Origin: Eubacteriales bacterium
GTDB taxonomy: Bacteria; Bacillota; Clostridia; Oscillospirales; CAG-272
Reading direction: 5' to 3'
NCBI GenBank assembly: GCA_045594085.1
Contig: JAZNXW010000023.1
Span: forward strand, 363 to 64,362
DNA length: 64,000 bases
Shown here: positions 3,506 through 8,177 of the stretch, piece after piece
Layout: every line of letters begins with the position of its first letter
Numbering within the stretch: the first letter of the stretch is position 1
The notes under the pieces: generated by a model
What the model was told of the DNA's origin: nothing
Database searches by the model: none
Seen by the model: only the letters and a program-made list of their open reading frames with translations
Made by a program: the position numbers and the translations under genes

Positions 3506-3915
3506 TCCGAATAAAGATATTCAACGTTTCCGATTGAAAGGAAAAGTCCTACAGCCGCATAGATCAGCATCAGCATAATGGAAAGGTCGCTTGTGACAAA
3601 GCCCATGGAGCGGTTGAAAAAGTTCGTTATTGTCAAGGTTAGCACCGTGACGGAAAGCACGAGTGAGCCGTGCGGCAACAGCACGGACGAGATCGGATCC
3701 TTTTTGCCGAGACGGTAGCTTGAATCAATATATACAATTGCCGAAGCGACAACGAATACGGCATAAACAAGAAAGATCACGCCCGAATCTGTCGAGTTGA
3801 CGTACATCATCTCAGGCATGGCGGCGTGGGCGAATACAACAAACAAAATAAGGACCGAATAAACGAGCGTCAAGTGCGCGATCAGATTTTTGAGCATTTT
3901 TACTGCTAATTTCAT
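3493..3915 (-). CDS. Four-TM membrane protein, unknown function
   Basis: Four hydrophobic segments; overlaps both neighbours. Confidence 0.7.
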   Translation of the reverse strand: MKLAVKMLKNLIAHLTLVYSVLILFVVFAHAAMPEMMYVNSTDSGVIFLVYAVFVVASAIVYIDSSYRLGKKDPISSVLLPHGSLVLSVTVLTLTITNFFNRSMGFVTSDLSIMLMLIYAAVGLFLSIGNVEYLYSECGN

Positions 3916-4925
3916 TCGGATACCTCTCCGATAACGATGATATCATAGATCTTTCTTGGCTCATCGTCGGGTGTGGTCGCTCTTTCGTAATCCTGGCGAA
4001 GGATCTCGCCATCGTAATAGGCGAACGCCGAATCGCCTCCGTCCAAGTTATACGCAAGTCTAACACCGAGCTTTTCGTATATGTCCGCGAAGTCGTGCAT
4101 ACGGATTCCCTTGGAATAAACCATTTCGCCCTTATATTCAATATCAAGTCTGCCGTCAGCGACGATGAAAACGTAATGGCCGGGCTCGTAGTAGCCGATC
4201 GAGGAGCGCGGATTGCGCGAGGTTATGTCGCTGTAATGCTGGAAATCATTTTCTCCGTAAGCTTTTCCGGAAGGGTCAAGCAGCGACGGGCCGAAGTCCC
4301 ATACCTGATAAACGTCCTTGTCGTCAAAATAGTTGGCGGAATACGTATAAGGAGACACGATTTCCATCGTTCCGTCGCCGTAAAGGACGCAAATATCGTT
4401 TTCGAGGCGGTTATCGGACGTGAGCACAGTTCCGTTGCGAATCGCCACGGATGCGGAGTTGCCCCAGAAGTCACCGCTGATTGCCGCGATGGGATCTGCA
4501 GCGGCTACGAGATCCGTAAACGGCACGCGCTCCGTGCTTGCAACCGTAAACAGGTTCTCGAGATTGCGAACGTAAACGTCATACACTATGTATCTTGCAA
4601 CGTAATCGTCGATCGGCTCGATGATTTCCGTTACTGTCAGATTGATGTCATGGCTGCGGTAGTAGCCGTCTCCGGACTCAACCTCGCCCTCGGCAAGAAA
4701 AACGTCCGGAAGAGTTGCGGCAAAATCGCCCTTTGAGGAATTGCCTGCATTTTCGTTGTCCTCGTCGGTACCGTTATGCGATCCGCCGATGATAACTCCG
4801 CCGCCCTCATCATTGTCCGTCATTTTTTTGACGTGATGGAAATAACAAAAAGACAAAAGCACGATGACAGCAGCGAGCGTATCGCATATCACAGATGTAA
4901 TTATATAGCGTTTTTTTGGATTCAA
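3912..4925 (-). CDS. Membrane-anchored phosphodiester glycosidase (NAGPA) family protein
   Basis: N-terminal TM; NPRSSIG, VADGR, AYNLDGGDS motifs; TTG start with GAAAGGA. Confidence 0.8.
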   Translation of the reverse strand: MNPKKRYIITSVICDTLAAVIVLLSFCYFHHVKKMTDNDEGGGVIIGGSHNGTDEDNENAGNSSKGDFAATLPDVFLAEGEVESGDGYYRSHDINLTVTEIIEPIDDYVARYIVYDVYVRNLENLFTVASTERVPFTDLVAAADPIAAISGDFWGNSASVAIRNGTVLTSDNRLENDICVLYGDGTMEIVSPYTYSANYFDDKDVYQVWDFGPSLLDPSGKAYGENDFQHYSDITSRNPRSSIGYYEPGHYVFIVADGRLDIEYKGEMVYSKGIRMHDFADIYEKLGVRLAYNLDGGDSAFAYYDGEILRQDYERATTPDDEPRKIYDIIVIGEVSE

Positions 4926-5040
4926 GCTTGTTTTTTTCCTTTCGGTGAATGAAATTTCAGCTTATCGTTTTCATTTTATCACGCATCGCGAGCGGATTCA
5001 AGAAATCCACGAAAAATTTAACATTTTTCGCTTGCCGAAA

Positions 5041-5069
5041 TTGAAGAAATCGGAATGTTATGATAAAAT
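5041..5069 (+). promoter_or_regulatory. Sigma-A promoter with extended -10
   Basis: TTGAAG-17-TAAAAT, TG at 5061-5062. Confidence 0.5.
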
Positions 5070-5142
5070 TTTTGCAGTAGGTGAGTGGATCGCGCTTTTT
5101 TGACGAATAAATGGTGTAAGCTTACAAAAACGGAGGTGTGCG

Positions 5143-5715
5143 ATGACAAACGCAAATGACCGCGGTGCAGAGCTTTATAGGGCGTATCTCGACGGAGATT
5201 CGGAAGCCTTTGAGACTCTCGTCGGACTTTACCGCGAAAACGTCATCTTTTTCTGTCTGCGCTATCTTTCCGTCTTTGAGGACGCGGAGGATGCCGCAGC
5301 AGAGGCATTTGCCGCGCTCATAATCAATCCGACAAGATATGATTTTAAAACTGCCTTTAAGACGTATCTTTTCTCGATCGCAAAGAAAAAAGCCGTCGAT
5401 ATTTATCGGAAACGCGCACGCCTCGCAAGTGTCGATGCTGTGACCGATTCCGAGTGGGCGGAAACGATCGAAGCGTCCGTGCTTGCAGAGGAAGAAAAGC
5501 GAGAGCTTCACAGAGCGCTTGCGTCGCTTCCCGCTGATTACGGAACAGTCCTCCATCTTGTCTATTTTGAGGAGCTGTCCTGCGCCGAGGCCGCGTCTGT
5601 TATGGGCAAAACGAAAAAGCAAACGGAGAATCTTCTGTACCGCGCGAAAAAGACTTTGCGCACAAGGCTGGAGGACGGCTCCGCACCGAAAGGAAACAGA
5701 TATGAGATCAAATAA
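5143..5715 (+). CDS. ECF-family RNA polymerase sigma factor
   Basis: GGAGG SD; region 2 DAEDAAAEAF..FKTYLFSIA; region 4 LS.AEAA.VMG..LLYRAKKTLR. Confidence 0.93.
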   Translation: MTNANDRGAELYRAYLDGDSEAFETLVGLYRENVIFFCLRYLSVFEDAEDAAAEAFAALIINPTRYDFKTAFKTYLFSIAKKKAVDIYRKRARLASVDAVTDSEWAETIEASVLAEEEKRELHRALASLPADYGTVLHLVYFEELSCAEAASVMGKTKKQTENLLYRAKKTLRTRLEDGSAPKGNRYEIK

Positions 5716-7150
5716 AGAATTTCTCCTTACCGTATACGAAAAAGCAGAAAAAGGTAAGGCAAAGCGCGCGTCACGCAGGTACGCACTGACTGCGGTAACG
5801 TCTCTTTTGCTCGCAGTATGCATGCTCGCCGTAACTGCCGTTTACTTCAAAAACGAGCTGACACCCGACGCCGACACTCCCGTAATCAACGGAGTCGATA
5901 ATCCAACGCTCGGAACCGAAAAGCCGACTGCGGGCATCGTTCCACCCGAAATTTACGATGACTCGCTCAAAATCGACGGCGTCGAGGTTTCGTCAGGCTC
6001 CATCACGCAGAATCTGCTTGATGGATTGCAGTCCGAGAACGTAAAGGTCTCGTATGCACTCGAGCACCTCTTTGACGGATCTTCCGATTTCGCCTTTGAT
6101 ATGCTCGCAAAGACATACGAGGGCGAAAACGTTTTCATCTCACCTTATTCCATTATCGCCGCGCTCGCAATGACAGCCAACGGCGCAGACGGTGAGACGC
6201 GAGCAGAGATCGAATCTGCCGTAGGTCTCACCGTAGACGAAATGAACGAGCTTATTATGTCGTACAATCACCGATGCGAATATCTTAATTCCGCCAATTC
6301 GTTTTGGATGAGAAACGGCAGCTTTACCGTAAAGCCGGACTTTCTTATCAACCTTGACGCGTATTATGACGCAGGCGTGTTCGCCGCTCCGTTTGATGAC
6401 GGAACGCTCGATGACATTAACAAATGGGTGTCCGACAATACGGACGGAATGATCCCCGAAGCACTGACCGAAATCCCGGAGGACGTTGTCGCATATATCA
6501 TCAACACCTTGCTGTTCGCAGGCAAGTGGGAGGATCCGTACTATGAGAGCAAAAACACAACTATGACGTTCATCTCCTCCGACGGCACTGAAGCCGAGGG
6601 CGAATTTATGCACGGAGAGTCAGCCTTGCTCGAGCTTGATTATGCAACGGGCATCTGCAAGGATTATTCATGCGAGCTTTCTTTTGTGGCTCTTTTGCCG
6701 AACGAAGGCTGTACGATCGAGGATGTGATCTCCTCGCTCGACTCCGACAGTATCGCAGAAGCAATGAAAAACGGAAGGAAAACGCGACACTCTCGCTGTG
6801 CCGCCGAATCTTTGCCGAAATTCAAATCCGAGACCTCGCTTGAATTGAGCGATGCACTTAAGGAAACGGGAATTATATCCGCGTTTGATTTGCGCGCAGA
6901 TTTTTCGCGCATCACCGACTCGATTGAACTTTTTGTGTCGCAGGTCATCCATAAAACGGCATTTGAAATAGATGAAGAGGGATCACGTGCCGCCGCGGCG
7001 ACGATTGTTGAGCTTACAGAGGAATCCGAGGAAGAGTTTATTCACGAGCCTGAGAAGGTACCGGTGATCTTCGACCGTCCGTTCGTTTATATGATCGTCA
7101 ATTCCTATGGCTTCCCCATCTTCATCGGAGTTTGCGATTCGATCAAGTAA
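5702..7150 (+). CDS. Membrane-anchored serpin with anti-sigma-like N-terminus
   Basis: ATG 5702 overlaps sigma gene end; basic N-tail then TM; FISPYSI, INKWV, LPKFK, hinge EEGSRAAAAT, FDRPF. Confidence 0.88.
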   Translation: MRSNKEFLLTVYEKAEKGKAKRASRRYALTAVTSLLLAVCMLAVTAVYFKNELTPDADTPVINGVDNPTLGTEKPTAGIVPPEIYDDSLKIDGVEVSSGSITQNLLDGLQSENVKVSYALEHLFDGSSDFAFDMLAKTYEGENVFISPYSIIAALAMTANGADGETRAEIESAVGLTVDEMNELIMSYNHRCEYLNSANSFWMRNGSFTVKPDFLINLDAYYDAGVFAAPFDDGTLDDINKWVSDNTDGMIPEALTEIPEDVVAYIINTLLFAGKWEDPYYESKNTTMTFISSDGTEAEGEFMHGESALLELDYATGICKDYSCELSFVALLPNEGCTIEDVISSLDSDSIAEAMKNGRKTRHSRCAAESLPKFKSETSLELSDALKETGIISAFDLRADFSRITDSIELFVSQVIHKTAFEIDEEGSRAAAATIVELTEESEEEFIHEPEKVPVIFDRPFVYMIVNSYGFPIFIGVCDSIK

Positions 7151-7172
7151 AAGTAAATTTTCCGTTTTAGGG

Positions 7173-7201
7173 TTTACAAATCAGCCGTGATTGTATATAA
7201 T
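7173..7201 (+). promoter_or_regulatory. Sigma-A promoter of cys operon
   Basis: TTTACA-17-TATAAT. Confidence 0.75.
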
Positions 7202-7225
7202 GTATTGTAAGTTAATATGATCACG

Positions 7226-7443
7226 ACTATGACCGGAAAGAAAACGGAAAAAGCCGATTTACAGAGACCGTCCTGCCGCTGAAACGGACGGAATCGAGCT
7301 CCGAATGTGCATCCGCGAGTCTTGACGCGCGAAATAACAGTAGTGCGCCGCGTCACCGCACGTTACGCGGACAAAAGCAACAAATCGGAGTGGAACCGCG
7401 GTAATATCGCCTCCCGTGTATATCACGGGAGGCTTATTTTTTT
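7226..7443 (+). ncRNA. T-box riboswitch (Cys)
   Basis: AGAGA and GCTGAAA stem-I motifs; GAA-TG-TGC-A specifier (TGC 7308-7310); T-box AAATCGGAGTGGAACCGCG 7382-7400; terminator GCCTCCCGTG/CACGGGAGGC plus T-run. Confidence 0.9.
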
Positions 7444-7460
7444 GAAAGGAATCCGTTACA

Positions 7461-8177
7461 TTGAGTAAGATTCAGATAACAATAGAAGCTGTCCTCGCGC
7501 ACGACATCGGTCTTGCGCTCCTTAAGATGAATGAAAAAGCCGAAAAAATCGGTGATGAGATCAAAAACGACATAAAATCCGTTCGTGAACGCGATCCTGC
7601 GGCAAAAAGCGATCTTGAAGCGCTCCTGCTTTATCCCGGTGTACACGCGATCTGGGCGCATCGAATCTCGCATAAGCTCTATGAAAAAAAGCGTTACACG
7701 TCGGCACGTGCCGTCAGTCAGGCGGCGAAATTCCTGACAGGCATCGAGATCCATCCCGGTGCGAAGATCGGTCATGGACTTTTCATCGACCACGGCGCCG
7801 CCGTTGTCATAGGCGAAACTGCCGAGATCGGTGACAACTGCACGATCTATCAGGGAGTCACCCTCGGCGGTACGGGCAAGGAAACGGGCAAGCGTCATCC
7901 CACTCTCGGAGACGGAGTTATGGTCGGCGCGGGTGCAAAGGTGCTCGGCGGTTTTAAGATCGGATCCGGATCTAAGATCGCGGCGAATGCGGTCGTACTT
8001 TCGCCCATTCCCGAAAACTGCACCGCAGTCGGCATTCCCGCACGTCCCGTCCGTATGAACGGACAGCGCATCGATAAGCTTGACCAGGTCCACATTCCGG
8101 ACCCGATCGCGCAGGAGCTCTGTGCGATCAAAAAACGCCTTTCCGAGCTTGAGGAACGGAAGGCGGATCAAGAGTAA
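7461..8177 (+). CDS. cysE: Serine O-acetyltransferase
   Basis: RDPAA, YPGVHA, TGIEIHPGA, GGTGK..GKRHPT, hexapeptide repeats. Confidence 0.95.
   Translation: MSKIQITIEAVLAHDIGLALLKMNEKAEKIGDEIKNDIKSVRERDPAAKSDLEALLLYPGVHAIWAHRISHKLYEKKRYTSARAVSQAAKFLTGIEIHPGAKIGHGLFIDHGAAVVIGETAEIGDNCTIYQGVTLGGTGKETGKRHPTLGDGVMVGAGAKVLGGFKIGSGSKIAANAVVLSPIPENCTAVGIPARPVRMNGQRIDKLDQVHIPDPIAQELCAIKKRLSELEERKADQE

What the first reader, a model, noticed from the sequence alone, without database searches (positions are those of the whole stretch)
5143..7150. ECF sigma factor coupled to a membrane-tethered serpin: candidate protease-sensing sigma/anti-sigma system
Seen: the gene overlapping the ECF sigma stop (ATG 5702) encodes a ~26-aa basic helical tail, one TM helix, a Pro/Thr linker and a full serpin with an inhibitory hinge. 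Known: ECF sigmas are usually co-translated with a single-pass anti-sigma whose outer domain is the sensor, and serpins undergo a large irreversible conformational change when their loop is cut. Inference: the serpin occupies the anti-sigma slot and acts as protease bait, so cleavage releases the sigma. I know of no described serpin-type anti-sigma.
Basis: partly seen in the sequence, partly recalled or inferred. Interest (0 to 1): 0.85.

Follow-up and report, generated by a model that had tools for sequence, protein, structure and literature searches.

The report
ECF sigma with serpin-tipped anti-sigma
A gut bacterium pairs a stress-type sigma factor with a membrane protein that probably holds the sigma inside the cell and displays a protease-trapping serpin outside; this pairing recurs widely in related bacteria and may let them switch on protease defence when attacked.

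Summary
An ECF sigma gene (5143-5715) overlaps by 14 nt a gene (5702-7150) for a 27-residue basic tail, one membrane helix, a disordered linker and a complete serpin with an inhibitory-type hinge.

The pairing is not chance:
- Of 109 serpin genes with enough flank in the same order, 51 lie behind an ECF sigma. Nine are direct tail+TM+serpin fusions; 42 are lipoprotein serpins behind a sigma and a separate tail+TM protein.
- The window's tail belongs to a conserved short module ("T1"). It follows one sigma clade in 28 of 28 serpin-linked loci and in 39 of 40 loci without a serpin.
- A complex prediction puts the tail on sigma region 2 (0.67; best control 0.11).

I read it as an autoregulated sigma/anti-sigma unit whose anti-sigma carries a serpin ectodomain, probably tying protease attack to serpin supply. 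The trigger step is inferred.

Three literature searches found no description. This scan noted the same architecture earlier in other genomes.

The parts
5041..5069 (+). sigma-70-like promoter candidate (TTGAAG, 17 nt, TAAAAT, TG before the second hexamer). It could be a basal promoter of the operon.
   Evidence: Consensus scan, 9 of 12 matches. This is a pattern match only.
5082..5110 (+). ECF-type promoter candidate: TGAGT, 17 nt, CGAATAA, ending 33 nt upstream of the sigma ATG.
   Evidence: The same two blocks and the same 17-nt spacing stand upstream of the sigma in the deep-branching T1 loci L087, L054, L056/L057, L080 and L083. The expression TGAG[ATG]-N17-CGA[AC]TAA has 1 match on both strands of the 2.0-Mb genome, and it is this site; three shuffles gave 1, 4 and 1. 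Coordinates.
5143..5715 (+). ECF (group 4) sigma factor gene, 190 aa (P0002), a member of the 'T1' sigma clade.
   Evidence: Pfam Sigma70_r2 and Sigma70_r4_2; NCBIfam TIGR02937 at 88.5 bits against a cut-off of 42.9. It lies in a clade of 28 rows with SH-aLRT 99.
5702..7150 (+). Gene for the tail + TM + linker + serpin protein, 482 aa (P0001). Its start overlaps the sigma gene by 14 nt.
   Evidence: The start at ATG 5702 is supported by alignment of the tail with 23 slot proteins that start at the same point.
5702..5782 (+). Cytoplasmic tail, residues 1-27: the T1 anti-sigma-like module.
   Evidence: The alignment A2 has no indels across the tail in 24 loci. Identity to P0004 and P0038 is 77% and 48%, higher than for the serpin core at 67% and 44%. 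Residues 1-22 contact sigma residues 24-61 in the complex prediction: ipSAE 0.67, best control 0.11. The single-chain model shows a helix over 4-53.
5783..5848 (+). Single transmembrane segment, residues 28-49, preceded by a K/R cluster (N-terminus inside).
   Evidence: It is the only Kyte-Doolittle 19-residue window run above 1.6 in the protein, with starts at 26-35 and a maximum of 2.34. It lies within the model's helix 4-53, with 10-residue block pLDDT of 76-88 over 21-50. No lipobox is present (read).
5849..6007 (+). Extracytoplasmic linker, residues 50-102, rich in T, P and D.
   Evidence: pLDDT is below 50 for residues 57-90. Identity to P0004 and P0038 is 35% and 9%, with 12 and 34 gaps. 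Composition.
6008..6079 (+). N-terminal extension of the serpin, residues 103-126, including N104-L105-L106.
   Evidence: It aligns with the N-terminal extension of tengpin: query 103 onwards on 2pee_A residue 4 onwards, with N-L-L over N-L-M. In tengpin, N40-L41-M42 trap the native state (PMC1905895, abstract and passages). L105 is at least 90% conserved in 75 homologues. pLDDT is 74-78 for residues 91-110.
6080..7147 (+). Serpin domain, residues 127-482.
   Evidence: Pfam PF00079 at 8.6e-76. Closest solved chains are tengpin 2pee_A at 1.7e-59 and miropin 5ncs_A at 9.7e-46. pLDDT is mostly 85-97.
6974..7063 (+). Hinge and reactive-centre loop, residues 425-454. By counting 17 residues from the hinge Glu (a recalled rule), P1 would be E441.
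   Evidence: The hinge matches the E.G[TS][KR]A[AG]A[AV]T pattern seen in most of the related serpins printed. The loop is 30 residues against 23-29 in relatives. pLDDT is below 50 for 433-446, consistent with an exposed loop. Identity to P0004 and P0038 is 36% and 26%.

Best explanation
The two genes form a self-contained, autoregulated ECF sigma/anti-sigma operon.

Shown or supported in silico: the second protein is a modular anti-sigma factor. Its 27-residue cytoplasmic helix (the 'T1' module) binds sigma region 2 and keeps the sigma off RNA polymerase. One membrane helix anchors it with the N-terminus inside. A disordered spacer of about 50 residues carries an inhibitory-type serpin on the cell surface.

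Inferred: the signal is extracellular protease activity. While active serpin is present it neutralises nearby target proteases. When proteases exceed or escape it, the exposed linker or ectodomain is clipped, either by the attacking protease or by a site-1 enzyme such as signal peptidase as in RsiV and RsiP. The genome's M50 site-2 protease then cuts the stub, the tail is degraded and the sigma is freed. The sigma transcribes its own operon from the TGAGT-N17-CGAATAA promoter, replacing both itself and the surface serpin.

The commoner three-gene form (sigma, T1- or T2-tail membrane protein, lipoprotein serpin) would work the same way, with sensor and inhibitor on separate proteins. The window's gene is a fusion of the two.

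My odds: sigma-binding anti-sigma with a serpin ectodomain, about 0.75. Protease as the signal, about 0.5. This exact order of cuts, lower.
For: 1. Slot and coupling. The serpin gene overlaps the sigma stop. In 36 of 47 other sigma/slot pairs the slot start overlaps the sigma stop by 4 nt, 37 after correcting L063.

2. The tail module tracks the sigma clade.
- On a tree of 56 sigmas, all 28 sigmas followed by T1 tails form one clade (SH-aLRT 99).
- All 18 followed by T2 tails fall in the other clade, together with 5 further ECF sigmas of this genome. I assigned tail types by eye before building the tree.
- In a sigma-centred survey, 39 of 40 further T1-like sigma loci have a T1 tail+TM gene directly behind the sigma; the fortieth ends at a contig end.

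3. Constraint. The tail is better conserved than the serpin core between P0001 and P0004 or P0038: 77% and 48% against 67% and 44%. The linker is at 35% and 9%.

4. Binding prediction. ipSAE was 0.67 (three runs: 0.67, 0.66, 0.72) against a best control of 0.11. Partner pLDDT was at least 74 and at least 94% of contacts were shared between runs. The mark was reached by 58 of 80 solved complexes and 2 of 110 mismatched pairs; these counts hold only roughly because my own alignments were used. The interface joins tail residues 1-22 to sigma residues 24-61.

5. Serpin linkage.
- Of 120 serpin genes other than the window's, 109 had at least 2.5 kb of upstream sequence or a sigma found. Of these, 9 are fused directly behind a sigma, 42 lie in a sigma operon and 58 have no sigma.
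- In other orders of the class, 7 of 40 loci are linked, one of them fused.
- Fusions involve three different tail types and are scattered on the serpin tree. Starred branches force at least 3 changes of the fused-T1 label and 2 of the fused-T2 label.

6. The serpin looks functional. It has a canonical hinge, an exposed low-confidence loop on a confident core and a retained N-L-L cap.

7. The promoter motif is shared with related loci and is unique in the genome.

8. A Peptidase_M50 gene is present at 215 bits.

9. Bifidobacterial serpin transcription is reported as induced by proteases (passage of PMC8201313).
Against: - There is no experiment. Binding rests on one in-silico job using my own alignments.
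- The tail matches no Pfam or NCBIfam anti-sigma family.
- The T1 module does not need a serpin: 0 of 40 further T1 loci had one within about 4.5 kb downstream, and only 25 of 78 T1-like sigma hits lie at serpin loci.
- In 42 of 51 linked cases the serpin is a separate lipoprotein. This fits 'output' as well as 'sensor'.
- 58 of 109 serpin genes have no sigma nearby.
- No close orthologue of this sigma (best 44% identity) and no fused gene was found in the 18 other genomes of the genus. The window's version is therefore a young or rare lineage, known otherwise only from P0003 (98%), P0004 (62%) and P0038 (37%).
- A weight matrix built from the inner T1 clade's promoter did not reach a score of 10 at the window's site. 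I wrote the strict motif after seeing the window's site together with the others.
- Expression evidence is weak. It comes from contigs of RNA libraries of a single study, which may contain DNA.
- No signal-peptide or topology predictor could be run.
Confidence: 0.5

Rival explanations
1. One reading: the serpin's own mousetrap is the switch. A target protease cuts the reactive loop and the loop inserts into sheet A. This remodels the surface where the juxtamembrane N-terminal extension (the N-L-L cap) docks. The freed tether becomes open to a site-1 cut, and the sigma is then released.
For: - The extension 103-126 aligns with tengpin's N-terminal extension, N-L-L over N-L-M. There, residues 40-42 cap a hydrophobic patch and hold the native state.
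- In tengpin, strands s1A-s3A and helices E and F, which the N terminus contacts, shift on loop insertion (PMC1905895, abstract and passages).
- L105 is at least 90% conserved in 75 homologues.
- Residues 91-110 are modelled with pLDDT 74-78, while 57-90 are disordered.
- Serpins have been fused to three unrelated tail types.
- RsiV is a precedent for an anti-sigma that is the receptor of a hostile enzyme, with site-1 cleavage gated by a conformational element (titles and abstract starts of PMC4183432 and PMC6066255).
Against: - After the loop is cut, most of the ectodomain and the covalently trapped protease stay attached to the stub.
- No data show that the cap undocks in the cleaved state.
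- The commoner three-gene form has the serpin on a separate lipoprotein, so this coupling cannot be the general mechanism.
- The model output gives no contacts, so docking of the cap on this protein is not shown.
Confidence: 0.18
2. The serpin is passive cargo. The sigma/anti-sigma pair senses something unrelated to proteases, such as general envelope stress, or nothing outside the cell. The serpin is simply a regulon product. The fusion arose by a deletion joining neighbouring genes and merely swaps a lipid anchor for a membrane helix.
For: - The T1 module works with hypervariable ectodomains and mostly without serpins (0 of 40).
- 42 of 51 linked serpins are separate lipoproteins.
- In L045 the fused serpin is sister (support 100) to the lipoprotein serpin next to it. 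This fits duplication followed by fusion of neighbours.
- The nearest relatives of the window's serpin are lipoprotein serpins of the same genus.
Against: - In the fused proteins the only parts outside the cell are the linker and the serpin, so any outside sensing must pass through them.
- Fusion recurred with three tail types and in several families, which argues for selection rather than accident.
- ECF systems commonly sense the threat that their regulon counters. Examples are sigmaV with lysozyme and sigmaP with beta-lactams (titles and abstract starts).
Confidence: 0.25
3. There is no anti-sigma function. The N-terminus is only a signal anchor or an ordinary cleaved signal peptide for serpin export. 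The sigma is regulated in some other way and the adjacency reflects co-expression only.
For: - The tail matches no known anti-sigma family.
- No topology or signal-peptide predictor was available.
- The ectodomain is an ordinary exported serpin.
Against: - A 27-residue charged, conserved n-region is unlike the short n-regions and lipoboxes of the related lipoprotein serpins.
- The tail is conserved more than the serpin core.
- The same tail follows the same sigma clade in 28 of 28 and 39 of 40 loci, whatever the ectodomain.
- The predicted interface scores 0.67 against 0.11 for the best control.
- No other anti-sigma candidate lies nearby. The neighbours are a NAGPA-family protein, a HAD hydrolase, serine acetyltransferase and a CAAX-type protease.
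Confidence: 0.07

Closest known systems
sigmaV / RsiV (Bacillus subtilis, Clostridioides difficile) and sigmaP / RsiP (Bacillus thuringiensis)
   Same: Each has an ECF sigma followed by a single-pass anti-sigma with a short cytoplasmic sigma-binding part. The ectodomain binds the hostile agent (lysozyme, or beta-lactams) and the regulon counters that agent. Activation is by regulated intramembrane proteolysis, with signal peptidase at site 1. I saw titles and abstract starts of PMC4183432, PMC5014341, PMC6066255, PMC9044953 and PMC8844934.
   Different: Here the ectodomain is a serpin, a suicide inhibitor that covalently traps its ligand. No Pfam or NCBIfam family of RsiV or RsiP type matches the protein. 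The countermeasure and the putative receptor are the same polypeptide. Site-1 cleavage is not shown.
Tengpin (Thermoanaerobacter tengcongensis serpin; PDB 2pee, 2pef, 2vh4)
   Same: It is the closest solved homologue (1.7e-59). It shares the N-terminal extension with the N-L-M/L cap that traps the metastable native state.
   Different: Tengpin was studied as a soluble truncated protein. The words 'membrane' and 'transmembrane' do not occur in the paper's main text, and no sigma link is described there. The window's protein places a sigma-binding tail, a TM helix and a spacer before the extension.
Lipoprotein serpins in three-gene ECF operons of related bacteria
   Same: They share the same sigma clade, the same T1 tail+TM module directly behind the sigma, a serpin in the operon and a related promoter motif.
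   Different: There the tail+TM protein has its own ectodomain of 130-300 residues with no known family, and the serpin is a separate lipoprotein. In the window both are one protein.
Protease-induced serpin expression in Bifidobacterium
   Same: A gut commensal raises serpin transcription when proteases are present (passage of the review PMC8201313).
   Different: That is a different phylum. The regulator recalled from the literature is a two-component system; the review holds that term once, and I did not see that passage. No sigma/anti-sigma pair is involved: 'sigma' and 'operon' occur 0 times in the review's text.
Short (class II, CnrY-type) anti-sigma domains; modular RsgI anti-sigma factors of cellulolytic clostridia (both recalled, not tested)
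   Same: In these systems a very short cytoplasmic peptide is enough to hold an ECF sigma. They also show a conserved N-terminal module combined with interchangeable outside domains.
   Different: No sequence relation was tested or found here. Neither is known to me to carry a serpin.

Membership tests
ECF (group 4) sigma-70 factors | Regions 2 and 4 only, about 170-200 residues, scoring above the family cut-off | tested here: met
   Pfam Sigma70_r2 (residues 27-93) and Sigma70_r4_2 (120-172). NCBIfam TIGR02937 at 88.5 bits against a cut-off of 42.9, covering residues 21-176 of 190.
ECF (group 4) sigma-70 factors | An autoregulated two-block promoter upstream of its own gene | tested here: inconclusive
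   TGAGT-N17-CGAATAA is shared with 5 related loci and is unique in the genome. However, the motif was written after seeing this site, the inner-clade matrix misses it, and there are no transcription start data.
Serpins (PF00079) | A full-length serpin fold | tested here: met
   256 bits against a cut-off of 27, on profile positions 3-365 of 370. Tengpin at 1.7e-59. AlphaFold2 core pLDDT mostly 85-97.
Inhibitory serpins | A hinge with small residues at P15-P9 that allows loop insertion (consensus recalled) | tested here: met
   The sequence G-S-R-A-A-A-A-T follows E-E at residues 425-434. The loop at 433-446 has low confidence, consistent with exposure.
Inhibitory serpins | Forms a covalent complex with, and inhibits, a protease | not testable with these tools
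   This needs a biochemical assay.
Membrane anti-sigma factors of ECF sigmas | A gene directly downstream of, and translationally coupled to, the sigma gene | tested here: met
   The overlap is 14 nt here. In 36 of 47 related pairs the overlap is 4 nt.
Membrane anti-sigma factors of ECF sigmas | A cytoplasmic N-terminal part that binds the sigma | tested here: inconclusive
   The prediction supports binding: 0.67 against 0.11 for the best control, with the interface on region 2. Tail type co-varies with sigma clade. No experiment.
Membrane anti-sigma factors of ECF sigmas | A known anti-sigma domain family (zf-HC2/class I, RsiV-type, RsgI_N) | tested here: not met
   Pfam and NCBIfam gave no hit other than Serpin for P0001. 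Related slot proteins gave none either.
Regulated-intramembrane-proteolysis circuits | A site-2 (M50) protease in the genome; stepwise cleavage of the anti-sigma | tested here: inconclusive
   A Peptidase_M50 gene is present at G000:C17:69874-70848, 215 bits. Cleavage itself cannot be tested here.

The most novel reading that the evidence does not exclude
The serpin's irreversible stressed-to-relaxed 'mousetrap' transition is used as a signalling switch. Trapping a target protease inserts the reactive loop and remodels the docking site of the tengpin-like N-L-L cap that joins the serpin to its membrane tether. This exposes the tether to a site-1 cut and so frees an ECF sigma. If so, a protease inhibitor would double as a one-shot receptor that reports each protease it has consumed. 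It would be the first transmembrane signalling role for serpin conformational change in bacteria.
Probability: 0.18. Interest if true: 0.9.

Novelty: new variant of a known kind. Interest (0 to 1): 0.72.

Why it matters
- It would add a new sensor type to ECF signalling: a suicide protease inhibitor as the outside domain of an anti-sigma factor. It would also add a very short, so far unnamed, anti-sigma module that is widespread in gut Clostridia-like bacteria.
- It offers a concrete, testable circuit for how gut commensals match surface serpin supply to protease pressure from host or neighbours. That question is raised in work on the gut 'serpinome' and inflammation (PMC8201313, passages).
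- The two-gene unit is small enough to move into a reporter host, so the open question of what triggers it can be tested directly.

Tried and rejected
- A position weight matrix built from 15 inner-clade promoter sites did not find the window's site at a score of 10 or more. Its top genome hits looked like chance. I replaced it with the deep-clade motif.
- Pfam and NCBIfam scans of the tail and of eight related slot proteins gave nothing above noise.
- BLASTP clustering of the T1 ectodomains gave mostly singletons, so there is no common sensor domain.
- Rfam had no match in 4800-7600.
- The search of earlier findings for this place was empty.
- RNA evidence. Two metatranscriptome runs of one study hold 0.80 and 0.68 of the sampled words. 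Contigs bridge the sigma/serpin junction: X1 covers 4881-6331, and X2 runs from 5195 to the end of the laid stretch at 7500. These are contigs from RNA libraries that may hold DNA, so I do not count them as proof of transcription or of one transcript. The gap in X2 over 4800-5195 proves nothing.
- I considered an internal start at Met41. I rejected it because it would lack an n-region and would ignore the conserved tail.
- I considered the conserved Cys in the membrane segment as a lipobox. I rejected it because the Cys lies mid-helix with hydrophobic residues on both sides.
- I did not run fold search on the model, because the sequence match to tengpin already names the fold.
Full report
**Observation**

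The window holds an ECF sigma gene at 5143-5715 (+) and a second gene from ATG 5702 to 7150 (+) whose start overlaps the sigma stop by 14 nt.

- The sigma (P0002, 190 aa) hits Pfam Sigma70_r2 and Sigma70_r4_2. It scores 88.5 bits on NCBIfam TIGR02937 (sigma70-ECF) against a cut-off of 42.9.
- The second protein (P0001, 482 aa) hits Pfam Serpin at 8.6e-76 over residues 127-476.
- Its first 27 residues carry 9 K/R and 3 D/E.
- The only hydrophobic stretch is at residues 26-50.
- Residues 50-102 are rich in T, P and D.
- The hinge and reactive loop are residues 425-454.

An AlphaFold2 model built on 75 homologues has mean pLDDT 82.4 and pTM 0.77. It shows one helix over residues 4-53, a disordered stretch at 57-90, a confident serpin core and a low-confidence loop at 433-446.

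**Neighbours**

- The gene upstream on the other strand is a NAGPA-family protein (3912-4925).
- Downstream lies serine acetyltransferase (7461-8177). It has its own strong sigma-70-like promoter (7173-7201) and a hairpin with a T run (7409-7433).
- No other anti-sigma candidate is nearby.

The unit therefore has two genes.

**Serpin-centred survey**

I searched 401 genomes of the same order with P0001; 163 had a serpin at E <= 1e-20. I fetched 100 regions chosen down the listed ranking, with 4 kb upstream, and added the 11 loci. I dropped 4 of these as duplicates that I had refetched with longer flanks.

Sigma genes were found with a profile built by jackhmmer from P0002 on this genome's ORFs. 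Of 120 serpin genes other than the window's:

| Category | Number |
|---|---|
| Upstream flank too short to judge | 11 |
| No sigma within at least 2.5 kb upstream | 58 |
| In an operon behind an ECF sigma | 42 |
| Directly behind the sigma as tail+TM+serpin fusion | 9 |

The fusions are L045, L055, L059, L094, L097, L101, L102, L104 and L109.

In the operon form the order is sigma, then a 'slot' gene, then a serpin with a lipoprotein signal. The slot gene encodes a short tail, one membrane helix and 130-300 further residues with no Pfam family.

Four genomes of the window's own genus (G004, G006, G007, G012) have this three-gene form. None of the 18 has the fused gene or a close orthologue of the sigma; the best is 44% identity.

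In 40 loci from other orders of the class, 7 are sigma-linked and one of these is fused.

**The tail is a module of its own**

Slot proteins begin with one of two main tail types.

- T1 has the pattern M-[KR]-x3-E-F-x3-[VI]-[FY]-x-[KR], followed by a K/R cluster. The window's tail belongs here.
- T2 is of the L-x-D-A-L-x-x-[IL]-D-D type. It also follows five other ECF sigmas of this genome.
- A third type occurs in L094 and L176.

I assigned types by eye before building a sigma tree of 56 rows (IQ-TREE, quick). All 28 sigmas with T1 tails form one clade (SH-aLRT 99) that holds no other ECF sigma of this genome. All 18 with T2 tails lie in the other clade. Related sequences share labels, so this is support for co-evolution, not proof.

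**Sigma-centred survey**

P0002 found 78 non-self hits at E <= 1e-28 in 62 of 400 genomes.

- 25 lie at serpin loci already known.
- Of the other 53 I fetched 40; 13 were not fetched.
- 39 of the 40 have a T1 tail+TM gene directly behind the sigma. The fortieth ends at a contig end.
- None of the 40 has a serpin within about 4.5 kb downstream.
- One (L131) probably continues into a serpin on another contig end. That is inference from its likeness to L054.

The ectodomains of T1 proteins are hypervariable. BLASTP at 1e-4 leaves mostly singletons, and the serpin is the only recurrent recognisable domain.

T1 sigma plus T1 tail is thus a general sigma/partner family with interchangeable outside domains. 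The serpin is one such domain, or an operon companion.

**Further support that the tail is functional**

- Between P0001 and its full-length homologues P0004 (62% overall) and P0038 (37%), the tail is 77% and 48% identical. The serpin core is 67% and 44%, the linker 35% and 9% with many gaps, and the reactive loop 36% and 26%.
- The complex prediction used the sigma (24-row alignment A1) and tail residues 1-32 (A2). It gave ipSAE 0.67 (runs 0.67, 0.66, 0.72) against a best control of 0.11. Partner pLDDT was at least 74 and at least 94% of contacts were shared between runs.
- The mark was reached by 58 of 80 solved complexes and 2 of 110 mismatched pairs, and holds only roughly with my own alignments.
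- The interface joins tail residues 1-22 to sigma residues 24-61, within region 2. From general knowledge, this is the surface that ECF sigmas use for core RNA polymerase.

This supports binding; it does not show it.

**Promoter**

Most inner T1-clade loci carry a motif of the form tAAGGAat, 13-14 nt, t[CT]GTATAAT. It lies 50-130 nt before the sigma domain in 18 of 28 loci. A matrix built from it does not pick out the window's site.

The deep-branching T1 loci share TGAG[AT]-N17-CGA[AC]TAA (L087, L054, L056/57, L080, L083).

The expression has one match in the whole 2.0-Mb genome, on either strand, and it is this site; shuffles gave 1, 4 and 1. I wrote the expression after seeing the window's site together with the others, so the test is one of location, not a blind one. 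The single match suggests a regulon limited to this operon.

**The serpin**

- The closest solved chains are tengpin (1.7e-59) and miropin (9.7e-46).
- The hinge has the small residues expected of inhibitory serpins (a recalled consensus), like most of the related serpins printed.
- The loop is 30 residues against 23-29 in relatives, and it is acidic.
- Counting 17 residues from the hinge Glu (a recalled rule) gives P1 = E441. Many relatives also have Glu at that count. This is a lead, not a result.
- Residues 103-126 align with tengpin's N-terminal extension, N-L-L over N-L-M. In tengpin that triplet caps a hydrophobic patch and traps the native state, and the region it touches moves when the loop inserts (PMC1905895, abstract and passages). 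L105 is at least 90% conserved among 75 homologues.

On a FastTree of 121 serpins the fused ones are scattered. Starred branches force at least 3 changes of the fused-T1 label and at least 2 of the fused-T2 label. L045's fused serpin is sister (support 100) to the lipoprotein serpin next to it. The window's serpin is sister (support 94) to lipoprotein serpins of its own genus. Fusion therefore happened several times.

**How it most likely works**

Shown or supported in silico:
- a sigma;
- a coupled membrane protein with a conserved sigma-clade-specific tail predicted to bind region 2;
- an outside serpin of inhibitory type;
- a conserved promoter;
- a site-2 protease gene in the genome.

Inferred: protease activity outside the cell leads to loss of the ectodomain or linker, then a site-2 cut, then sigma release and renewed synthesis of sigma and serpin. 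Under this reading the serpin buffers the sensor against the proteases it inhibits.

It needs an extra step, because the bulk of the ectodomain stays on the stub. The tengpin-like cap offers a possible route, which I keep as the most novel reading.

The cargo reading has the serpin as output only. It fits the three-gene form but explains the recurrent fusions less well.

**Comparison with what is known**

The nearest described systems are sigmaV/RsiV and sigmaP/RsiP. There the anti-sigma's outside domain binds the hostile agent and signal peptidase makes the first cut (titles and abstract starts). The window's protein fails the family test for any known anti-sigma domain, so it works like them but is not a member.

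Bifidobacterial serpins are reported to be induced by proteases (passage of PMC8201313).

Searches for a description in print:

| Search terms | Papers |
|---|---|
| 'serpin' + 'anti-sigma' | 18 |
| 'serpin' + 'ECF sigma' | 3 |
| 'serpin' + 'extracytoplasmic function' | 5 |

None had either term in its title or abstract, and judging from titles and abstract starts alone none concerns such a pairing. The gut-serpin review has 0 occurrences of 'sigma', 'operon', 'transmembrane' or 'lipoprotein'. Subscription journals are not in the library, and supplements were closed.

This scan's own notebook holds at least eight earlier notes of the same architecture in other genomes. I read them after my analysis, and they agree with it.

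**Limits**

- No experiment was done.
- There was only one complex job.
- Tail types were assigned by eye.
- Gene starts were chosen by rule.
- Trees were quick or FastTree.
- Loci were sampled from the top of ranked lists.
- The organism is inferred to be a Clostridia-like gut bacterium only from the names of nearby database proteins and from coded run labels.

Noticed in passing
window 5783-5848; slot proteins of L002-L192 and of G000 contigs C9, C15, C17, C29, C2: The membrane helices of these sigma-adjacent proteins, of both T1 and T2 tail types, nearly always carry a small-small-Cys motif (A-A-C or A-V-C) in mid-helix. It is too deep in the helix to be a lipobox. It may matter for intramembrane cleavage or acylation.
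   Followed up: partly
window 6974-7063 and the serpins listed: Counting 17 residues from the hinge Glu puts a Glu at P1 in the window's serpin and in many related clostridial serpins (patterns such as A-E-S-A and D-E-C-A). This hints at Glu-specific bacterial proteases as targets rather than pancreatic ones. The 98% variant P0003 differs at P4 (L438F).
   Followed up: partly
window 7173-7460: The serine acetyltransferase gene has a near-consensus sigma-70 promoter (TTTACA, 17 nt, TATAAT) and a leader of about 260 nt ending in a strong hairpin with a T run (7409-7433). No Rfam family matches at gathering score. It could be an unrecognised attenuator or a divergent T-box.
   Followed up: partly
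G000:C9:35958-38612 (-): An 884-residue open frame matches the ECF sigma profile (jackhmmer E 6e-46). It may be a sigma fused to a large extension, or an ORF-calling artefact.
   Followed up: no
G000 contigs C15:8751-10922, C17:131301-134126, C9:309358-310881, C29:31173-32552, C26:1-395: Five other ECF sigmas of this genome are followed by T2-tail membrane proteins with large outside parts of unknown family (up to 941 aa). This 2-Mb genome therefore invests heavily in this modular sensor family.
   Followed up: no
L022:2205-2715 (+) compared with L004:673-1377 (+): The outside domain of the slot protein in L002, L004 and L008 (motif F-S-F-S-L-T-W ... S-Y-D-S) recurs in L022 as a separate small lipoprotein between the slot gene and the serpin. 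Sensor domains in these operons also exist as stand-alone lipoproteins.
   Followed up: no
G000:C14:10328-11467 (+): The genome has a second serpin (41% identical). No ECF sigma gene was found next to it; the nearest sigma hit on that contig is 26 kb away.
   Followed up: partly
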